Shown: one piece after another, positions 1,683 to 16,373 of the stretch
Numbering within the stretch: the first letter of the stretch is position 1
Layout of the letters: the number at the start of each line of letters is the position of its first letter
Source of the DNA: Promethearchaeota archaeon
GTDB taxonomy: Archaea; Asgardarchaeota; Lokiarchaeia; Sigyniarchaeales; SOKP01
NCBI GenBank assembly: GCA_016839705.1
Contig: JAEOTR010000037.1
Location: forward strand, 1 to 45,373
Length of the DNA stretch: 45,373 nt
Direction of reading: 5' to 3'
Made by a program: the position numbers and the translations under genes
The notes under the pieces: model-generated
Told to the model about the DNA's origin: nothing
What the model saw: the letters and a program-made list of their open reading frames with translations, nothing else
The model's database searches: none

Positions 1683-2813
1683 ATGAGTTCTCAAAAAAGA
1701 AGAAATCCTCTGAAGGAATGTGTAGAGTTTATAGAAGAGCGTAAATTAGGATATCATAAAGAAGACGAACCATATTCTAGCAGCCCCGAAGAAGAAACTT
1801 TTGAGATTGAAGAAGATAAAATATTTGAGATTCCTAAGTGTGATGATATAAAAGACATTGGTTTTGTAGATGGTGGGAACGGACCTTTACTGAGAAGTGC
1901 AGACTTTAACATAAGTTTAAACCGAGTTGCTGGAGTGTTATATTCCTCTAATGAATGGGCTGAACCAAAAATAACTCCGGTAAAAATAGAATTTTATAGT
2001 GCTACAGTATTGGATCTTCTTGAAAATGATAAATTAGCTTATATTACCCGATTTTTTCCAGTAGAACCAGAATTTTCAGAATATCTTCCTAAGAAAGAAC
2101 TGAAGTTTTCTATTGATGATCCTTCGATAAGAGAGCGGTTGTTCAGTTTACCCAAGATTGAAACTTTTGGGGGAATAGCAATGAGATTTGCAGAATGGAC
2201 ATATGCAAATAAATTTATCTCAAATGAATTAGATAAAGGCGGTATCTTTGTTAGAGATGGCTCTCTTCAAACGGGGTATACTGGAGAAACAGAAATTGCG
2301 GATGAATTATACAAAACTGCGATTAAAAAGGAAGTAGCGGTAACTGGTCTTTCAAAAAGTTGTAGATTAATAACAAAAACCGGTAATTCATTAAACTCTT
2401 TAATAATGCATATAGGAAACAATAAGTTCCCAGAGAGCAGTTGGTATTATCATCCTATCTATAGGATTACAAAAGCTCAGGAACAAGCAGATTTATATTT
2501 TGCTAAATTCCATAAAAATTCAGCTTATTCATTTAGATTTGACATTTTATTAGATCAGGCTAAAAAAATGACACAAGACCAGCGTGAACTCATAATTTCT
2601 AATATCGCGTATAATTCAAATGATCTTTCATATCCTGGATATCCATATGGATTAATAAAAGCAGATCAACTTGCAGCAGTTAGTCTTCGAGAACTGAAAC
2701 CTCAAAAAATACAATTGATTGCAGAATTTGATCAACAGGATTATAATGAGTATATTTTACCACGTCTACGCTCGGTAAATGCTCATGATTTATTAAATAT
2801 TATTAGAAGATAA
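1683..2813 (+). CDS. nurA: NurA 5'-3' nuclease
   Basis: FVDGG, RDGSL, GLSK and [10 protein letters not shown] motifs; directly upstream of herA-mre11-rad50. Confidence 0.88.
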
Positions 2814-2832
2814 TTTTGGGAAGGTAAAAAAA

Positions 2833-4407
2833 ATGGCTGATTTAGGAAATAAAATTGGAAGTTTTGTAACTGGATCTTTAGTTAAATTAATATTAAGACA
2901 AAAATCTGACCAAGAATTTGAACTCGGACAGCTTTTTATCGCTGGTAAAGATAAGTATGAGTATAGTATTTATCAAATTAAGGATCTTCTTTATGGAAGT
3001 CAAATGCCTGAAGCTGCTCTTGAGCTGATGGCGGGGTATGGATTAGAACGAGAAAGATCTGATCTAAAAATTTATGAACCTGAATTACGGAATTATGTAT
3101 TAGCATTAGCAAGACCCTTAATATATGTCAAGAATAATAAATTATTTTTACCGAAGAAATTACCATCATTCTTCTCAGATACTTACGATATTGATGATAA
3201 TCATTTAGAGTTTTTTAAAGAAGAAGAAATAGATAATCCCTTAAATTTAGGTAGCATTCGTTCTGGTTCTAAAGTTTTAAAAACTGAGGTAAAATTGGAG
3301 GCTAAAGATGTTTTAAAGCACCACATTCTAATCCCTGCCACTACAGGTAGGGGAAAATCGAACCTCGTAAAAACTATTCTCTATAATTTAATGGATAATG
3401 ATAACTGTGGTAAATTAGTTTTCGATCCTCATAATGAGTATTATGGAACTATTTCTCAAAAAGGTTTAAAAGAGCACCCTGAAAGTTCAAAATATATCGA
3501 TTTTTATACTATTAGATCCATTCCTGGGAAGCTTGATCTAAGATTTAACGTAAATTTAATCGAACCTAAGCATGCAATGGGGAGTATTAATTTTAGCCAA
3601 CCACAGATAGAAGCTTTAATTGGTTTTTTTCGAATACATAGACAAAATTGGATTCAAGCCATTTTTAGTAATGATGAAAACACATACCAAAGACCCCAAG
3701 GGCTTAATCTTAATACTTTGGATGTAATTAGGAGAAGATTAGCAATACTTTTAAATTTTGGATTTGATTCTGAAAATAAAATAATCGAGAATGGAATCTA
3801 TACCATAAATGGATATGAATCAACAGTCAGCAATATTGTAAACTCATTAATAGAAGGGAGAACCGTTATTGTTGATACTTCTTTATTTGAGGGTGCTCGA
3901 GAAATATTTGTAGCAACTATTATTGTAGAGAATATTTTTAATGAGTATAAGAGGTTAAAATTTAAAGATCAATTAACAGATAAACCAGTCATTACAATTG
4001 TTTTGGAGGAAGCTCCAAGAGTCATAGGAAAAAAAGTATTAGAAACTCGAGATAATGTTTTCGGCAAAATTGCTCGAGAAGGTAGGAAATTTAACATTGG
4101 TTTAATAGGAATAACTCAATTACCAAGTTTAATAGATAGAGAAATATTAGCGAATATGAATACCAAAATCATCCTTGGAAATGAAATGGGACCCGAAAGA
4201 AGAACATTAATAGAGAGCTCTGCTCAAGATCTCTCAGATGATAGTCAGACAATTGCAAGTTTAGATATAGGTGAAGCTATTGTTACTTCAAATTTTACTA
4301 AATTTGCTATTCCAATTAAGATCCCTTTATTTGAGGATTTAATAAAAGGCAAATCAGTACAAATAAAATCTGATAAAAAGATTAAAAAACAATCTCCAGG
4401 ATTTTAA
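2833..4407 (+). CDS. herA: HerA helicase/translocase ATPase
   Basis: N-terminal HAS-barrel-like region, Walker [16 protein letters not shown], Walker B LEEAP, REGRKF, ITQLPS. Confidence 0.92.
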
Positions 4408-4434
4408 AATAACCAAAATAATAAGAACAATATA

Positions 4435-5733
4435 ATGAAAGTTAAGTTTGCTCATATTTCTGATGCGCATTTGGGAGCATGGAGAAATGAACGTATAAAT
4501 GAACTAGGGTATAAGGCATTTGAAGAAACCGTCAACATTATCATTAAGGAGGGTGTTGATTTTGTTATCATTAGTGGCGACCTATATGACGTGACTAATC
4601 CAAAAGTAGAAGTGATAGATTTAGCAACAAGAGAGCTGAAGAAATTAAAAGATCGGGAAATTCCCGTTTATGGGATATGCGGATCCCATGACTTTTCTCC
4701 ATCAAACAAATCTATGATTAGACCATTAATTACAGCGGGATTATTTATAAATGTTTCAGAAGGAAATTTGATGGAAAATGGGAAATTGAAGTTAGATTTT
4801 TACCAGGATCAAAAAACTCAAATTAAATTAACAGGTTTAAGAGCAAGAAAACGCAGTTTGGAAATTGAAGATTATAGAATATTGGATATAAAATCTCTTG
4901 AAAGTGAAATAGGACCAAAAATCTTCATTTTACATACCATGTTAAGCGAATTAAAACCAAAAGAGTATAAGGATATGGAATCTGCTCCCAAATCGTTATT
5001 ACCTCAAAATTTCGATTACTATGCTGGTGGGCATCTCCATAAAACTCTACCTGAAAAATTAAGGGTTAAAGAATTTTACTACGACATTGATAGGAAAAAT
5101 AACATAGTCTATTCTGGATGCATTTTCCCAACTGACTTTAGAGAGTTTGAAACAATTAAATCTGGGGGATTTTGTATTATCTCCGGAGAAATGAATGGAA
5201 ATCAGCTAGGTTTAAAGGTTAAATATATTCCAGTTAGGGTTATTGATGTGGAAAATATTTCACTTGATTGTACAAATAAATCAGTGACAGAAGTTCAAGA
5301 TTTACTAAAAGAAAGTCTTTCGAGCAAAAATTTTAAAGGCAAAATTGTAACCATTAGGCTCTTTGGGCCCATATCTTCAGGCAAGACATATGATATAAAA
5401 TCTAATGAAATAATTCAAAATTTAAAGGATTTGGGTGCTTTTGAAGTGTTAGTTAATAAAAATGCTCTTACAACAGTGGAGTACCAATCCATAAGTGTTT
5501 CTACAGGTTTTTCTAAGGAAGAAATAGAAACAACTTTAATTAAAGAACATGCGAGTAAGGTCAGAATTAGTGACTTTCCAACAGCTAAGATGGAAAAAAA
5601 AATTTATCAACTCTTAGGTGCTCTTGGTACAGAAAGGCAGATTGGTACGAAAGTAATGAATTATAATGAATCTCTAAAGCAAGCATTTTTGGGGATATTT
5701 GAAATTCAAAAGTCTAAGGAGCCTAAACAATGA
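4435..5733 (+). CDS. mre11: Mre11 nuclease
   Basis: Metallophosphoesterase motifs SDAHLG, GDLYD, GSHD, LHT, GGHLH; ATGA overlap with rad50. Confidence 0.93.
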   Translation: MKVKFAHISDAHLGAWRNERINELGYKAFEETVNIIIKEGVDFVIISGDLYDVTNPKVEVIDLATRELKKLKDREIPVYGICGSHDFSPSNKSMIRPLITAGLFINVSEGNLMENGKLKLDFYQDQKTQIKLTGLRARKRSLEIEDYRILDIKSLESEIGPKIFILHTMLSELKPKEYKDMESAPKSLLPQNFDYYAGGHLHKTLPEKLRVKEFYYDIDRKNNIVYSGCIFPTDFREFETIKSGGFCIISGEMNGNQLGLKVKYIPVRVIDVENISLDCTNKSVTEVQDLLKESLSSKNFKGKIVTIRLFGPISSGKTYDIKSNEIIQNLKDLGAFEVLVNKNALTTVEYQSISVSTGFSKEEIETTLIKEHASKVRISDFPTAKMEKKIYQLLGALGTERQIGTKVMNYNESLKQAFLGIFEIQKSKEPKQ

Positions 5734-7817
5734 TTTTGCAGTCAATCGAAATATCAAACATTAGGAGCATTAGAAGCGAAAAGATAGAATTTCCTTCATC
5801 AACTATGTTATTTTTTGGGGATGTAGGAAGTGGAAAGTCATCTGTTTTAAAATCCATAGAGTTTGCCTTATTCGGGACTCTTGTTCATGGGGAGTTAAGT
5901 GGGGATTCGCTTTTAAGAAGAGGAAGAAGCAAAGCTTCTGTCAGCTTAACATTTTCAATTGATGGTAAAAGCTATTCAATTAAACGAAATTTATCAAAAG
6001 ATAGAAAAGGAAAAGTCTCTCAGAAAGAGTGTGTCTTTATTGACCATGACGAAGGAAAACAAATATCTTATGCTCCTACAGACATGAGAAGAAAAATCTT
6101 ATCTTTACTCTCATATTCCACTTCTCGTTATGAAAAAGCAACTAAACTCCCTCTTTTCAGATATACGGTATATACTCCTCAAGAACAAGTAAAAGAAATT
6201 ATTCAAGCAGATCCAGAAGAGCGTTTTGAGATACTAAAGGAAGTGTTTGATATCGAAAAATATGAAATTACCCTTAAGAATCTAGAAATTATTAAAGATT
6301 TCTTAAATGATAAAATCAAGGAATTTCAAATTAAAATTCAACAAATTGGTCTACCAGAAGAAGGAATAATCCAAAAGGAAAAAGAAATAGAAGAAGTAAA
6401 TAAAATAATTAAAAATCTTGAAATAGAAAATAAAAAAAAAGAAACAGAACTAAAGTCCAAAGAAAAAATTGTAGAAAGAATACAACTGGATTTGGATAGT
6501 TATTCAAAAAAAATAGTACAAATCGAAAATAAGGAGTCCAGCAGTAAGGAATACAAAGAAAAACAGAAGAAAACTAGCTTAACATTGACTAGTATTCAAA
6601 AAGAAATTTCTGATAAAGATAATGAGTTTCAAAATTTGAAAATAATTGAGCTCAAGACAAAACTTAGTGAAGATGAATTAGAAAAACAAATTGACAATCT
6701 ACAAGATTTAAAGTCTCAAGGAGAAAAAGAATTAGCGATTATTACAAAAAATGTGTCGGATGTCGATAGCTTATTAAAAGAAGGTAAGTGTTCTTTATGT
6801 GGACAAGCTATTCATGAAAAAGATAGATTTGAACAAGAATTGAAAGCAGCTTCGTTAAAAGTAAAAAATATATCTACAGAAATAAAATCTTTAACTCAGA
6901 AGGTAAATGGACAGAGGAAATTACTCAAAAACTTACGTGAATTTCAGAAATATGAAAACAAAAGAGATTCGTTTTTGAATTTAATCTCAGAAAAAAAGAA
7001 AAGAGAAGCAGATCTAACGAACTATATAAATGAGTTAGCTACTAAACTGAAAGAGAATGAAAATGATATATTTGTTATTTTATCAGAATATAAAATTACT
7101 GACTTACTGGAGTTTAAAGAATTAGGGAAAGAAATAAAGGTTAAACTAACAACTGAAAAAAATTTATTAAAAAAACTTAAATTCAACAAGGAATCAACTG
7201 GGAATGAGCTAGTAAGTCAAAAAAAGAGTCTTGAATTTTTACAGAAGGATTTGGTAGATTTAAAAGCTAATATAGAATTAAAAAAAAACTTACAATATAA
7301 TCTAACCTACTACTCTCAACTGAAAGGTTGGCTTAGTGATGAATTTCCTATTCTTATAAGAGATATTGAAAAGAAAATTCTCGGTTCAAGTGCTCACCAT
7401 TTTAATTCCTATTTTAAAGAATGGTTTCATGAATTAATTGAAGATAAAAATATAGAAGTCGAGATAAGACCTGATGATTTTCAACCCGTAATTTTTGTAA
7501 ACGGGTATGAATCACCATTTAAAGATTTATCTGGTGGGGAAAAAAGCGCTCTTTCTTTATCTTACAGACTAGCTTTAAATAAAATCATTAATGAGCAATA
7601 TCAAGAGGTAAAAACAAAAGATCTTCTAATTTTAGACGAACCAACTGATGGTTTTAGCCAACAACAAATTAATCGTATGCAACCAATATTTGAAAAATTA
7701 AACACTTCTCAAATGATAATAATCTCTCACGAAAGGAATCTTGATTCTTTTGTAACTGATATTTTCCATTTTGAAAAAGAAAATCATGTAACGAGGGTTA
7801 CAAAAGAAAGATCTTGA
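5730..7817 (+). CDS. rad50: Rad50 SMC-like ATPase
   Basis: Walker A GDVGSGKS, coiled coil with central zinc hook CSLC (residue ~354 of 695), signature LSGGE, Walker B LILDEPT, ISH. Confidence 0.93.
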   Translation: MILQSIEISNIRSIRSEKIEFPSSTMLFFGDVGSGKSSVLKSIEFALFGTLVHGELSGDSLLRRGRSKASVSLTFSIDGKSYSIKRNLSKDRKGKVSQKECVFIDHDEGKQISYAPTDMRRKILSLLSYSTSRYEKATKLPLFRYTVYTPQEQVKEIIQADPEERFEILKEVFDIEKYEITLKNLEIIKDFLNDKIKEFQIKIQQIGLPEEGIIQKEKEIEEVNKIIKNLEIENKKKETELKSKEKIVERIQLDLDSYSKKIVQIENKESSSKEYKEKQKKTSLTLTSIQKEISDKDNEFQNLKIIELKTKLSEDELEKQIDNLQDLKSQGEKELAIITKNVSDVDSLLKEGKCSLCGQAIHEKDRFEQELKAASLKVKNISTEIKSLTQKVNGQRKLLKNLREFQKYENKRDSFLNLISEKKKREADLTNYINELATKLKENENDIFVILSEYKITDLLEFKELGKEIKVKLTTEKNLLKKLKFNKESTGNELVSQKKSLEFLQKDLVDLKANIELKKNLQYNLTYYSQLKGWLSDEFPILIRDIEKKILGSSAHHFNSYFKEWFHELIEDKNIEVEIRPDDFQPVIFVNGYESPFKDLSGGEKSALSLSYRLALNKIINEQYQEVKTKDLLILDEPTDGFSQQQINRMQPIFEKLNTSQMIIISHERNLDSFVTDIFHFEKENHVTRVTKERS

Positions 7818-12088: not shown

Positions 12089-12382
12089 CTATAAAAGCCC
12101 AACTAATATTTTAAAGGCTGCTGTTTCATCACCATCGTCGACAGAACTGAGAGTAAAAGTCCTATCATGTTTATCTCGAATTTTGGGTGCTTCTTGACCA
12201 GAAATAAATTTCATTCGAGTAGAAGTGTTTTTACCTTCCCACATCCACACTTTTTTTCCATGCATATCTACAAAAATTAGGATTTTATCCGAGTCTAGCA
12301 AATCGAATAAAGGGATGTTTTCCTTAATTTTTACTTCTGCAAATTCTTCGCTATCATTGTCAAATTGATATAAAATTATCAA
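12089..12382 (-). CDS. Single-domain gelsolin-like protein
   Basis: LDSDKILIFVD...VWMWEGKNTS...VDDGDETAAF follows the gelsolin-repeat pattern L-x-S-xx-hhhhD...hhhW-x-G-xx-S...V-xx-G-x-E-xxx-F. Confidence 0.75.
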   Translation of the reverse strand: MIILYQFDNDSEEFAEVKIKENIPLFDLLDSDKILIFVDMHGKKVWMWEGKNTSTRMKFISGQEAPKIRDKHDRTFTLSSVDDGDETAAFKILVGLL

Positions 12383-13266: not shown

Positions 13267-14103
13267 TTATCCAGAAAATACTTCCTTTTTTTTCCCTAAC
13301 TTTTCTTTTTTAACTTTTTTTAATTTAATGATTGGATACTCTCCTCCGCTATCTGGCCCATAATCCACACTTTTTATGTAGTCAAATAAATTTTGTTGTA
13401 AAAAATTAATGAGTACAGTTGTAACTTTATCACAAACAGAACTACATTTTAAAAAATCACATTGTTTGTTAACCCTTTGGCAATATTTCTTTAATTGTAA
13501 AGAATATCCCTCCGCAAGTAAAATTGAAATGTAATCCCAATTGTCTTTAAATCCTGAGATTTCATGTGGAGATGCTTTTTTCAATGACTTTCTTAAGTGA
13601 CCTTCTGAAATGCTTCTTGAAAGTCTCTCATTAATGTTTTTCATTTCTTTTTTAGCTTCAAGTTTACAAAGAAAGATATAATATTGCAATAACGCCTCTG
13701 CTTCCTTGGATTTATCAGGATCAATAATTTTCCACCCACTTGCTCTTTTACAACTTATCTCTTTATTTTCAGGATTAGAAAAATTAGTGGGATAAATCCA
13801 GCACTGCGGAGGTTTAATCCCAGAGTTATGAACATGACAACCATTAATACTATTATCAAACAAAAAGCATTTTGCTTTTTTTTCATCAAATCTTAATTTA
13901 AAGCTAAAAACATCACTTCTAATAAAATCACTCTTCTTAGCAAATCCTTGCTTAATATATTCTTCAGCTAATATTTTAGGTATGTCAATCTTTATTGAAC
14001 AACAATCCCCATGACATATATCCAAACAATCTGGACCTTCAATTGCTGATTTCATTAAAGAATTAAATTTTTTAACAACATCCCAAAATTTGTCGGCAAC
14101 CAC
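13267..14103 (-). CDS. YkgJ-like cysteine-cluster (Fe-S/Zn) protein
   Basis: CLDICHGDCC, CFLF...CHVH...KPPQCWIYP, plus further C-terminal Cys. Confidence 0.65.
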   Translation of the reverse strand: MVADKFWDVVKKFNSLMKSAIEGPDCLDICHGDCCSIKIDIPKILAEEYIKQGFAKKSDFIRSDVFSFKLRFDEKKAKCFLFDNSINGCHVHNSGIKPPQCWIYPTNFSNPENKEISCKRASGWKIIDPDKSKEAEALLQYYIFLCKLEAKKEMKNINERLSRSISEGHLRKSLKKASPHEISGFKDNWDYISILLAEGYSLQLKKYCQRVNKQCDFLKCSSVCDKVTTVLINFLQQNLFDYIKSVDYGPDSGGEYPIIKLKKVKKEKLGKKKEVFSG

Positions 14104-14261: not shown

Positions 14262-16373
14262 ATGTCAAGTAATTTAATAATCATAGATATTACAGAAGAA
14301 GAAAAAATTATCCTCGATGGATCACAAAATCTGAAAGAAATCTCTGGAAATGGTACTCTTGTTATAAAAAATCCTACTCAAAAAAGTAGACTGTGGAATT
14401 TGAATTGTGATATTAAAGAAAACCTAAACACGTCAATCGATTCTAAGGAGTTATCTATCGGCACTTTAAATCCTTCACAAGAATTTACTAAAGACTATGA
14501 GATAAAAGAGCTCAAGGAATCATCATTGAAAATAGAGGAAATATTTGATGCAGAAAAATCCATAACTGGTAAAGTAAACAATGCCTTTCTTTATAATCAA
14601 GATAATAAATGCAGTCTAAAGCTCATACTTACCAACCGATTGAATATACCTATATTAGAAATAAAATTACAGCGAGATATACCCTCATTTATTCAAGAAA
14701 TTGAGATGAGAGATCCAAGTCTTGGGGAGGCAACCCTAAAAGAAGAAGGAGGTAATAGAATTCTCTCCTGGGATTTACCATCATTGGATGCTCAAAATAC
14801 AGCTGAGTTTGAAATATTTTTTACAGTGAAGATAAATGAATTATCTCCTCAAGCAATTGGAGCATTAAATGTAAAATACTTAATTAATAACTATAAGTTA
14901 ACAATGATAAATCCTGAAGTTAGAGGATTAACTGATTCGATGAGCGGAATTGATCGGGATGAAGGTTCTCAACCAGGTATGTGGGATTGTAATGTGGAAT
15001 TTATTAATGAATCTGAATTTCAAGTAAAGCTAGAAGATGCTAAAGTTACTCAAAAAATCCCAACAGGGGTAGAAACTGTTGCTTCCCAAACACCGGAGAA
15101 GGTTCTAAATCCTGATGAATCATGGGATTTTGATTTTCAAGTGGAGGCTAAGGATGTACCTGAATTAAGTTCTGAAATAGGTTTTACACCACTTTATGTT
15201 TTAATTCCCAGAGTTATTGGTGAAATTGTAAAAGAATCAACTATATACGCAGTTTTGAGTGCTACAATTGAGAAAGAAATTATTCCGCCTGAAGTGGATG
15301 CATACGCTAACACTGATATGAAAATCGTTAATACAATCGTTAACAATGGTTCTTCTAATATTGAAAAAGTGTTTATTAAGGATGAAATTCCACCTGATTT
15401 TGTCCCACCTTTAGTAAAAGATTTGTCTATCACATTGGATCCTATTGATATTAGCTCAAGGGAAGAATTTGTCAAAAAACTTCTAATTGATCCAAGCGAT
15501 CAAGATTTTTCTAAGAGTCATTCAATTTACATTGAGTTGTATAACCTTTCAAATGAATTTCTCCCTGGAAAAACCATAATAATTTCCTATTCTCTTTTAG
15601 CGAGAAATCCACGACCACCTACTGAAACAAAGTATATGACTCCCGTAAAAATAGATATTAACAGCCCCGTTGAGGGAAAATATTTCATTAAGACACCAGA
15701 TGAAGAACCAGAATTAAAAGTTAGATATGTTAAGCGTAAACTTAAAACACTTAAAAGTATCAAACCTGGATTTACTGAAGGAGAATTTAGTATTGGAGTA
15801 AGAGTTCAAAATAAAGGAGATGTTGAATTAGAAAATGTGTTAGTTAAAGATATAATTCCCACAGGGTTTAGTTTGACAGAATTCACACCTCCTGAAGGAG
15901 CAACTCACGAAGTCGCACAAGTAGGTGATCTTTCAGAACTACATATAAAGGTAGCTGAAATTAAAGGTGGTTCTTCTGTGAGCATTAATTACAATTGTTC
16001 TGGGTCTGGTGATTATCCACGATCAGAACCTGTTATTATTGTATTGGGAAGAGGAGGAGGAGAGTCGTCGGAGTCCTTTGGAACACCTCCAGCAGGTACA
16101 GAAACACCAAAAGCACATGTAGCAGATTCACAAGCAGGAAAAATACATGATACATTTATTGATTTATTTAAAAAGGTTGACCAAGCTATAACTGCAGAAA
16201 AGCTAAGTCAAATTCTAGAAGATGTTAAGAGTGTTTTACCTCCTGGGCCAGTTCTTCACCAGATATTAGCGTATGCCAGAGAACTGAAAAATATAGGAGA
16301 TAAAATAATTGTTGGTTCGTTGAGAGATGATGTTTTAAATAAGTTAAAGGATTTTAAAAGCAAATATAATTAA
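14262..16373 (+). CDS. Large cytosolic beta-sandwich protein: mu-homology-like N-terminal region, DUF11/Ig-like repeats, C-terminal helical domain
   Basis: 703 aa with no signal peptide or TM segment. Repeated N-x-G/S-x3-h-x2-h-x-h-x-D-x-IP motifs; N-terminal segments resemble the AP-mu/delta-COP C-terminal domain. Confidence 0.6.
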   Translation: MSSNLIIIDITEEEKIILDGSQNLKEISGNGTLVIKNPTQKSRLWNLNCDIKENLNTSIDSKELSIGTLNPSQEFTKDYEIKELKESSLKIEEIFDAEKSITGKVNNAFLYNQDNKCSLKLILTNRLNIPILEIKLQRDIPSFIQEIEMRDPSLGEATLKEEGGNRILSWDLPSLDAQNTAEFEIFFTVKINELSPQAIGALNVKYLINNYKLTMINPEVRGLTDSMSGIDRDEGSQPGMWDCNVEFINESEFQVKLEDAKVTQKIPTGVETVASQTPEKVLNPDESWDFDFQVEAKDVPELSSEIGFTPLYVLIPRVIGEIVKESTIYAVLSATIEKEIIPPEVDAYANTDMKIVNTIVNNGSSNIEKVFIKDEIPPDFVPPLVKDLSITLDPIDISSREEFVKKLLIDPSDQDFSKSHSIYIELYNLSNEFLPGKTIIISYSLLARNPRPPTETKYMTPVKIDINSPVEGKYFIKTPDEEPELKVRYVKRKLKTLKSIKPGFTEGEFSIGVRVQNKGDVELENVLVKDIIPTGFSLTEFTPPEGATHEVAQVGDLSELHIKVAEIKGGSSVSINYNCSGSGDYPRSEPVIIVLGRGGGESSESFGTPPAGTETPKAHVADSQAGKIHDTFIDLFKKVDQAITAEKLSQILEDVKSVLPPGPVLHQILAYARELKNIGDKIIVGSLRDDVLNKLKDFKSKYN

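What the first reader, a model, noticed from the sequence alone, without database searches (positions are those of the whole stretch)
14262..16373. Mu-homology-domain-like (AP-mu/delta-COP) protein with Ig-like repeats: candidate proto-coat adaptor
Seen: no signal or TM segment. Several segments recall the mu/delta-COP C-terminal domain in the correct order: IIIDITEEEKIILDGSQNLKEISGNGTL (first strands), GEATLKEEGGNRILSWDLPSLDAQNTAEFEI (the LxWxLPxxD strand), LNVKYLINNYKLTMI, and a closing strand IPRVIGEIVKESTIY after an apparently inserted beta-sandwich. Two further DUF11-like sandwiches (NNGSSNIEKVFIKDEIP; NKGDVELENVLVKDIIP), a Gly/Pro linker and a helical bundle follow. Known: mu-homology domains bind cargo in eukaryotic vesicle coats. 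Inference: an archaeal multi-domain cytosolic adaptor or scaffold without the N-terminal longin domain. The resemblance was judged by eye only.
Basis: inference. Interest (0 to 1): 0.75.

Follow-up and report, generated by a model that had tools for sequence, protein, structure and literature searches.

The report
Asgard mu-homology-domain protein, already listed
This Lokiarchaeial gene encodes a soluble protein that starts with the two-lobed "mu-homology" domain eukaryotic vesicle-coat adaptors use to grip cargo, but a 2023 Asgard survey already listed its orthologue as such a candidate and its function is still untested.

Summary
The ORF at 14262-16373 (+) is real. It encodes 703 aa with no signal peptide or TM segment, and every quoted segment is present.

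With a 107-sequence alignment, residues 1-340 fold at pLDDT 96.7. An unbiased search of 48,161 PDB chains puts only mu-homology domains in the top ten: mu1-4, delta-COP, SGIP1 and Syp1. Z is 12.6-16.0 there and 16.8 to AP-2 mu2. The alignment runs from model 3-326 to mu2 170-435, covering both subdomains and the closing strand.

Pfam PF00928 misses this protein. It passes its cut-off in two relatives and scores E<=0.01 in 30 of 70.

Further points:
- Subdomain B is itself a DUF11-type repeat.
- An ~86-aa sandwich nested before the closing strands carries the family's most conserved motif.
- Two DUF11 domains, a disordered linker and a Loki-specific four-helix bundle follow.
- There is no longin domain, and no AP-core partner was recognised in the genome.

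The family occurs in 157 of 201 Asgard genomes searched. An orthologue is already in Eme et al. 2023, Table S3 (Adap_comp_sub). This scan has also found the family repeatedly on other DNA.

Verdict: a real MHD homologue, already known. The adaptor function is inferred only.

The parts
14262..16373 (+). Whole gene: 703-aa cytosolic protein, P0001 (stop codon included)
   Evidence: ORF list and translation. Orthologues of the same length at 56-88% identity. No TM segment or signal peptide; pI 4.8.
14262..15251 (+). Residues 1-330: mu-homology domain (MHD) including a nested extra sandwich
   Evidence: AF2 pLDDT 96.7. Foldseek against PDB: all listed hits are MHDs, best E 6.9e-10. VIA Z 16.8 to mu2, model 3-326 against 170-435. 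Unbiased VIA: the top 10 are all MHDs. A single phmmer stretch covers 5-338 in most relatives.
14262..14549 (+). Residues 1-96: N-terminal strands of MHD subdomain A (boundary approximate). Includes the conserved stretch 31-45 and the invariant N37.
   Evidence: HMMER aligns family positions 14-44 to AP-3 mu3A 19-49; D9 falls on the Asp and E12 on the Glu of the mu 'FxDVxE' start. Conservation analysis.
14550..14906 (+). Residues 97-215: MHD subdomain B, itself a DUF11-type sandwich (boundary approximate)
   Evidence: PF00928 matches in relatives map here, to profile positions about 104-237. The family profile hits AP-3 mu1 and AP-2 mu2 in PDB over this stretch. Pfam DUF11 hits the same stretch in relatives and in the paralogue. 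hhalign of B against D2: probability 97.7%, E 1.8e-12.
14907..15164 (+). Residues 216-301: extra beta-sandwich nested before the closing strands and absent from eukaryotic MHDs. It carries the family's most conserved motif (238-252, PGxWxCxxxFxNxSEF).
   Evidence: About 110 of the 340 model residues stay unaligned to MHDs. The PF00928 profile stops at about position 236 of 259 before this stretch. Seven extra strands at 218-295. Highest 15-residue conservation window, with near-invariant E234, W241 and N249.
15165..15251 (+). Residues 302-330: closing hairpin that returns to subdomain A
   Evidence: Strands 302-310 and 312-324. VIA alignments end at model 325-328 against the last residues of mu2, mu1 and delta-COP.
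15252..15701 (+). Residues 331-480: DUF11-like Ig domain D1
   Evidence: AF2 strands with pLDDT 80-89. hhalign of D1 against D2: probability 96.8%. TIGR01451 reports two stretches.
15702..16052 (+). Residues 481-597: DUF11 domain D2
   Evidence: Pfam PF01345 E 1.7e-8, 35.2 bits, above the cut-off. pLDDT 76-86.
16053..16121 (+). Residues 598-620: disordered Gly/Ser/Pro/Thr/Glu linker
   Evidence: pLDDT below 50; poorly conserved in alignment A1.
16122..16370 (+). Residues 621-703: four-helix bundle found only in the Lokiarchaeial 703-aa orthologue group
   Evidence: Helices 622-640, 645-657, 663-678 and 686-702 with pLDDT about 85. Present in only 23 of 107 family members aligned. No match in Pfam, PDB sequences or the ESM Atlas.
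13267..14103 (-). Divergently transcribed 278-aa Cys-rich neighbour; the conserved partner by position in this lineage only
   Evidence: Adjacent and divergent in 10 of 10 loci of the window's family. No Pfam hit. Unrelated to the MBL neighbour of other lineages.

Best explanation
The gene encodes a soluble, acidic, modular scaffold of Lokiarchaeia. Its first 330 residues are a true homologue of the eukaryotic mu-homology domain (MHD). Shown at prediction level: the MHD has both subdomains and the closing strand. Subdomain B is a DUF11-type Ig repeat. An extra, highly conserved sandwich is nested before the closing hairpin. Two more DUF11 domains form a stalk, and a flexible linker tethers a four-helix bundle. 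Inferred: like every characterised MHD (AP mu, delta-COP, muniscins), the domain serves as a docking platform for short peptide motifs or partner proteins. The helical bundle would bind a second partner or drive self-association. Because there is no longin domain and no recognisable AP core nearby, the protein would act as a stand-alone adaptor of the muniscin or stonin type, not as the medium subunit of a tetrameric coat adaptor. My odds are about 0.9 that the MHD is homologous and about 0.3 that the protein sorts membrane cargo.
For: Fold: pLDDT 96.7 and pTM 0.88. All listed Foldseek hits are MHDs, with probability 1.00. VIA gives Z 16.8, rmsd 3.1 A and 225/245 residues aligned over mu2 170-435. 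In the unbiased VIA search the top 10 of 48,161 chains are all MHDs, with 211-229 residues aligned; the next tier aligns 149 or fewer. Sequence: PF00928 scores above its cut-off in relatives P0145 (40.9 bits) and P0164 (34.4 bits). It scores E<=0.01 in 30 of 70 family members and E<=1 in 11 of 26 close orthologues. The family profile's best PDB hit is AP-3 mu1, at E 0.0046-0.0076. Register: D9 and E12 align with the acidic pair of the mu 'FxDVxE' first strand. The second most conserved stretch (31-45) follows the GxhxhK strand that carries K203 in mu2; that mapping rests on my recalled mu2 sequence. Cytosolic location: no TM segment or signal peptide. Selection: the family is in 157 of 201 Asgard genomes and 53 of 59 genera. 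No longin: the MHD starts at residue 3.
Against: No ligand, partner or localisation is known for any member. PF00928 does not detect this protein itself. The MHD is strongly acidic (net -23), unlike the basic lipid-binding face of mu2, so membrane recruitment would need a partner. The genome gives only a weak, sub-threshold sigma/longin-like hit and generic HEAT proteins, none of them linked to this gene. The conserved neighbours point elsewhere, to a Cys-rich protein here and an MBL-fold protein plus the DSB-repair operon in other lineages.
Confidence: 0.75

Rival explanations
1. The protein is a scaffold or regulatory partner in genome maintenance or another non-trafficking process. On this reading the MHD fold is simply a protein-binding module with no link to membranes.
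For: The gene lies 6.4 kb from nurA-herA-mre11-rad50 in the window, with an RNase T-like exonuclease, a UvrD helicase and an Mrr-like nuclease in between. In distant Asgard families the MHD gene, together with an MBL-fold gene, sits directly beside the same four-gene repair operon (L024, L025, L027, L030). MHD identity between these lineages is only 25-29%, so the linkage is old. The MHD is acidic, with no sign of a lipid-binding face.
Against: The repair genes are on the opposite strand or separated by other genes, so there is no shared operon. The linkage is absent in several lineages (L028-L034). Related genomes are not independent samples. No nucleic-acid-binding domain is present.
Confidence: 0.15
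2. It is the true medium subunit of an Asgard AP/COPI-like heterotetramer, with the longin part supplied in trans by a separate small protein.
For: Eme et al. 2023 report all AP/COPI domain types in Asgard archaea, unfused. The own genome has a weak Clat_adaptor_s-like hit (18.2 bits, contig C46) and HEAT proteins that hit Adaptin_N.
Against: The sigma-like hit is below its cut-off and unlinked. Adaptin_N also rings in Bacillus and methanogen control genomes, so it marks generic HEAT repeats. No neighbour of the MHD gene in 21 loci belongs to these families. In mu subunits the longin domain, which is absent here, is what anchors the subunit in the core; this is established knowledge of AP structures.
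Confidence: 0.07
3. It is only a generic array of Ig/DUF11 sandwiches, and the likeness to the MHD is convergent or produced by the modelling.
For: Subdomain B is a DUF11-type repeat. PF00928 misses this protein itself. Single Ig domains reach Z 9-11 against the model.
Against: Full-length MHD superposition aligns 211-229 residues and both subdomains in one rigid body. PF00928 scores above its cut-off in two relatives, over profile positions 12-236. No templates were used and all five models score above pLDDT 94.9.
Confidence: 0.03

Closest known systems
Asgard 'Adap_comp_sub (PF00928)' candidate eukaryotic signature proteins, Eme et al. 2023 (Nature 618:992, PMC10307638), Supplementary Table S3
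   Same: It is the same orthologous group. A Lokiarchaeales entry in that table begins MSENLVIIDITD..., carries the CNVEFINE motif and aligns with P0001 by eye along the shown length. A Jordarchaeia entry shows the same family motifs.
   Different: As far as I read it, the paper lists the family only as a Pfam-level candidate, describes a 'sparse distribution' and gives no structure or architecture. Here the fold is confirmed at Z 16.8 and the family is found in 157 of 201 Asgard genomes. The nested insert, the DUF11 nature of subdomain B and the Loki-specific helical bundle are also described.
C-terminal mu-homology domain of AP-1 to AP-4 mu subunits and COPI delta (e.g. AP-2 mu2 residues 170-435, PDB 5wrk, 1bxx; mu3A 4ikn; mu4 4mdr; delta-COP 4o8q)
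   Same: The two-subdomain fold is shared end to end (Z 14.9-16.8). Profile-level sequence similarity covers subdomain B and the first strand.
   Different: There is no N-terminal longin domain, and an extra ~86-aa sandwich precedes the closing hairpin. Sequence identity is only 8-14% and the surface is acidic. The domain is followed by DUF11 domains instead of ending the chain.
Stand-alone MHD adaptors: muniscins FCHo/SGIP1/Syp1 (PDB 5awr, 3g9h) and stonins
   Same: The MHD sits in a multidomain protein that is not part of a tetrameric core. The fold match is Z 12.6-14.6.
   Different: In those proteins the MHD is C-terminal, behind F-BAR or disordered regions. Here it is N-terminal and followed by Ig repeats. 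No DPF-motif partners are known in archaea.
DUF11 / TIGR01451 repeat proteins (PF01345) of bacteria and archaea
   Same: D2 passes the Pfam cut-off. D1 and MHD subdomain B are profile-level relatives of D2.
   Different: By my recollection, DUF11 arrays are typically secreted or surface proteins. This protein has no signal peptide, and one repeat is nested inside another sandwich to form an MHD.

Membership tests
Mu-homology domain superfamily (fold level: AP mu, delta-COP, muniscins, stonins) | Two beta-sandwich subdomains, with the chain starting in subdomain A, passing through B and returning to A with the last strands | tested here: met
   Model 3-326 aligns to mu2 170-435 in a single superposition: Z 16.8, rmsd 3.1 A, 225/245 residues. 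The top 10 of the unbiased search are all MHDs. This rests on a predicted structure, not a solved one.
Mu-homology domain superfamily (fold level: AP mu, delta-COP, muniscins, stonins) | Sequence-profile similarity to PF00928 (Adap_comp_sub) | tested here: inconclusive
   P0001 itself has no PF00928 hit at E<=10, and the HMM misses it in the genome. Relatives P0145 and P0164 pass the 31.6-bit cut-off. 30 of 70 family members score E<=0.01. The family profile's best PDB hit is AP-3 mu1, E 0.0046.
AP/COPI medium subunit (mu / delta-COP) | N-terminal longin (Clat_adaptor_s, PF01217) domain fused upstream of the MHD | tested here: not met
   The MHD begins at residue 3. There is no PF01217 hit in P0001 or in relatives with N-terminal extensions.
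AP/COPI medium subunit (mu / delta-COP) | Assembly with two large adaptin-type subunits and a sigma/zeta subunit | not testable with these tools
   The genome has only a sub-threshold sigma-like hit and generic HEAT hits, all unlinked. No such genes occur among neighbours in 21 loci.
AP mu subunits | YxxPhi pocket residues (mu2 F174, D176, K203, W421, R423) | tested here: inconclusive
   HMMER places D9 on the conserved Asp of the first strand. The K36 = K203 match rests on my own count from a recalled mu2 sequence.
Asgard Adap_comp_sub ESP candidates (Eme et al. 2023) | Orthology to a protein listed under PF00928 in Supplementary Table S3 | tested here: met
   A Lokiarchaeales entry with the same N-terminus and the CNVEFINE motif was found in the table. 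The identity was judged by eye, not computed.
DUF11 repeat (PF01345 / TIGR01451) | Profile match above the curated cut-off | tested here: met
   PF01345 scores 35.2 bits against 24.6 at residues 508-578. TIGR01451 scores 37.2 bits against 24, with two stretches.

The most novel reading that the evidence does not exclude
The Asgard family is the living link that shows how the eukaryotic MHD arose: a prokaryotic DUF11-type Ig repeat was nested inside a second sandwich. The same stretch of the archaeal proteins matches both the DUF11 profile and the PF00928 profile, and subdomain B is as close to the downstream DUF11 repeats as they are to each other. If the protein also binds tails of membrane proteins, it would be a pre-eukaryotic, single-chain cargo adaptor that predates tetrameric AP/COPI coats.
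Probability: 0.2. Interest if true: 0.8.

Novelty: already known. Interest (0 to 1): 0.4.

Why it matters
How vesicle-coat adaptors arose is an open question in eukaryogenesis. This protein family gives it a concrete, well-folded and nearly universal Asgard handle: an MHD that can be expressed, crystallised and used as bait. The family is already on the published list of Asgard eukaryote-like proteins, so its existence is not news. This analysis adds three things. First, structure-level confirmation. Second, evidence that the 'sparse' distribution is an artefact of Pfam's sensitivity. Third, a domain anatomy that suggests where to look for function, namely the DUF11-type subdomain B, the conserved nested insert and the lineage-specific helical bundle.

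Tried and rejected
1. The first full-length AF2 run used 26 close orthologues and gave a poor N-terminal model (pLDDT below 50 at 1-22, 37-86 and 211-329). The deeper 107-sequence alignment solved this.
2. Foldseek on that full-length model returned only generic tandem-Ig arrays (integrin legs, factor XIII) and said nothing about the helical bundle.
3. An ESM Atlas search with residues 612-703 gave no usable hit. Pfam, NCBIfam and PDB-sequence searches also left the bundle unexplained.
4. I tested whether the Cys-rich divergent neighbour (278 aa) is a diverged version of the MBL-fold neighbour seen in other lineages. hhalign gave probability 0.1%, so they are unrelated.
5. The MBL neighbour of other lineages was not found in the own genome with a protein query. 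A generic PF13483 gene exists on contig C9, unlinked. The genome is 93% complete.
6. Pfam scans of nine long relatives (925-1343 aa) and ten relatives with N-terminal extensions showed no informative fusion: no longin, no GTPase, no adaptin.
7. The search for related loci with the diverse alignment A3 failed because no stretch was conserved enough. It was repeated with A1.
9. The sigma-70 promoter and terminator scan gave no more than chance and does not apply to archaea.
10. Residue-level mapping of the ligand grooves was not possible because model coordinates are not exposed to scripts.
Full report
THE OBSERVATION

The window has 27-38% G+C. An ATG-to-TAA frame of 703 codons lies at 14262-16373 on the + strand. 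The highest 19-residue hydropathy mean is 1.24 and the N-terminus is acidic, so there is no TM segment or signal peptide. The protein has pI 4.8.

Pfam and NCBIfam recognise only DUF11, at residues 508-578. A single-sequence search of PDB sequences finds nothing.

More than 100 proteins, nearly all 701-704 aa long, share 56-88% identity. Their submitters label them Promethearchaeota or Lokiarchaeia. A scan of species-representative genomes returns 80 full-length orthologues at 44-82% identity, all from Asgard MAGs. The gene is therefore real, conserved and Lokiarchaeial.

IS THE N-TERMINUS A MU-HOMOLOGY DOMAIN?

Sequence evidence:
- Several orthologues carry precomputed PF00928 hits.
- Scanned here, 11 of 26 orthologues match PF00928 at E<=1. 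The best is 6.8e-7 at 26-29 bits, under the 31.6-bit cut-off. The match covers protein residues about 94-215 and profile positions about 104-227 of 259.
- An exhaustive phmmer search with residues 1-340 against 1.84 billion representatives gives 156 relatives at E<=1e-3. Most of them cover residues 5-338 as one stretch, so the region is a single evolutionary module.
- Among 70 diverse relatives, 30 match PF00928 at E<=0.01.
- Two relatives pass the curated cut-off: P0145 at 40.9 bits over profile positions 12-236, and P0164 at 34.4 bits.
- Profiles of the family have AP-3 mu1 as their best PDB hit (E 0.0046-0.0076), followed by AP-2 mu2.
- HMMER also pairs the family's first strand with the start of mu3A. 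This puts D9 and E12 on the acidic pair of the mu 'FxDVxE' motif.

Structure evidence:
- With only 26 close orthologues the N-terminus modelled poorly.
- With 107 diverse sequences, residues 1-340 reach mean pLDDT 96.7 and pTM 0.88. No templates were used.
- All listed Foldseek hits in the PDB are MHDs, with probability 1.00 and best E 6.9e-10.
- VIA-align gives Z 16.8, rmsd 3.1 A and 225 of 245 residues aligned for mu2, with model 3-326 on mu2 170-435. It gives Z 14-16 for mu1, mu3, mu4, delta-COP and SGIP1.
- A search of 48,161 representative chains that does not depend on Foldseek ranks ten MHDs first (Z 12.6-16.0, 211-229 residues aligned). Single Ig domains follow at Z 11.1 or less with 149 or fewer residues aligned.

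One rigid superposition covers both subdomains and the closing strands.

ANATOMY

All boundaries are approximate.
- Residues 1-96 and 302-330 form subdomain A.
- Residues 97-215 form subdomain B.
- Residues 216-301 form an extra seven-stranded sandwich nested before the closing hairpin. About 110 model residues stay unaligned to MHDs, and the PF00928 profile breaks off just before this stretch.
- The insert is not a lineage oddity. It holds the most conserved 15-residue window of the whole family (238-252) and near-invariant E234, W241 and N249.
- The second most conserved window is 31-45, which contains the invariant N37.
- Profile-profile comparison shows subdomain B is a DUF11-type repeat. 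B against D2 (481-597) gives probability 97.7% and E 1.8e-12. B against D1 (331-480) gives 94%. D1 against D2 gives 96.8%.
- In relatives and in the paralogue, Pfam DUF11 and PF00928 hit the same stretch.
- After D1 and D2 come a disordered linker (598-620) and a four-helix bundle (621-703, pLDDT about 85).
- The bundle is present in only 23 of 107 family members. It has no match anywhere I could search.
- There is no longin domain.

DISTRIBUTION AND CONTEXT

- The MHD module is found in 157 of 201 genomes sampled across the phylum and in 53 of 59 genera. It is not found in some small-genome families.
- The PF00928 HMM itself misses the protein in its own genome. This explains why a Pfam-based survey called the distribution sparse.
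- The own genome has one paralogue on contig C42. It is 715 aa with the same MHD-insert-DUF11-DUF11 order, a 77-aa N-terminal extension and no helical bundle.
- One distant relative, P0213, comes from a MAG labelled Thermoplasmata. I did not follow up on the distribution outside Asgard.
- In 10 of 10 loci of the window's family, a 278-aa Cys-rich gene lies divergently upstream, next to a 122-aa Mrr-like gene.
- In other Asgard families an MBL-fold gene (PF13483) lies immediately upstream on the same strand, in 6 loci. In four of those loci the pair abuts nurA-herA-mre11-rad50.
- In the window the same repair cluster lies 6.4 kb upstream.
- The Cys-rich and MBL neighbours are unrelated.
- The genome has no above-threshold sigma/longin hit. 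Its Adaptin_N hits are generic HEAT repeats that also ring in control genomes.

HOW IT MOST LIKELY WORKS

Shown, at prediction level: the protein is cytosolic and combines a bona fide MHD, an Ig stalk and a tethered helical bundle.

Inferred: the MHD docks peptide motifs or partner proteins, as all characterised MHDs do. The conserved insert and the 31-45 strand region are the best candidate interfaces. The bundle would bind a second partner or drive oligomerisation. Without a longin domain the protein cannot sit in an AP-type core the way mu does, so a stand-alone adaptor of the muniscin kind is the closer analogy.

The acidic surface argues against direct binding of anionic lipids. The repeated linkage to repair genes keeps a non-trafficking role open.

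WHAT IS KNOWN

Eme et al. [quoted passage not shown] Their Table S3 lists a Lokiarchaeales protein under Adap_comp_sub/PF00928. By eye it is an orthologue of P0001, with the same start and the CNVEFINE motif.

I found no paper in the held library that describes the structure, architecture or function of this family.

Earlier notes of this scan record the same family many times on other DNA, with the same reading. I re-tested the fold, the published listing, the near-universal distribution and the MBL neighbour myself.

VERDICT

The function is unproven, and the finding is already known in the literature as a candidate.

Noticed in passing
window 1683-7817 (+); also L024, L025, L027, L030: A nurA-herA-mre11-rad50-type cluster (Pfam: DUF87/HerA, Metallophos, Rad50-like SMC_N) lies 6.4 kb upstream of the MHD gene. 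In distant Asgard families the same cluster directly abuts the MBL gene plus MHD gene pair. The linkage is old and unexplained.
   Followed up: partly
window 13267-14103 (-): A 278-aa protein with a CxxxCxxxCC cluster plus further Cys/His motifs and no Pfam hit. It is divergent from the MHD gene across a 158-bp spacer in 10 of 10 loci of this family. From memory it recalls YkgJ/UPF0153-type Cys-cluster proteins; I did not test this.
   Followed up: partly
L024:7202-7906, L025:7246-7941, L026:9179-9868, L027, L030, L034:7168-7875: This is the MBL-fold (PF13483) gene immediately upstream of the MHD gene in other Asgard families. Only two of the six copies match a simple H.H.D[HN] pattern. The other four may be inactive or use a variant motif.
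   Followed up: partly
G000 contig C42:28003-30150 (-) = L002:682-2829: A paralogue of 715 aa. It has the same MHD-insert-DUF11-DUF11 order, 22% identity, a 77-aa N-terminal extension, a long acidic loop inside the MHD and no C-terminal helical bundle.
   Followed up: partly
P0001 residues 481-597 (window 15702-16052): DUF11 domain D2 gives weak hits to adaptin appendage-type sandwiches. These are the gamma-adaptin ear 1gyv (family profile E 0.012-0.08), Pfam AP3B1_C (best E 0.0004-0.002 in relatives) and Alpha_adaptinC2 (one member, E 0.046). Separately, the GGA2 GAE domain aligns to the MHD model at Z 9.2 with 19% identity. This may be no more than a shared Ig fold.
   Followed up: no
P0213 (relative of the MHD module): A relative covering query residues 7-331 (E 1.8e-9) comes from a MAG labelled Thermoplasmata. 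The module may therefore not be confined to Asgard archaea, unless this is a binning error.
   Followed up: no
window 12089-12382 (-): A 97-aa ORF conserved beside the Mrr-like gene in 7 loci, with no significant Pfam hit.
   Followed up: no
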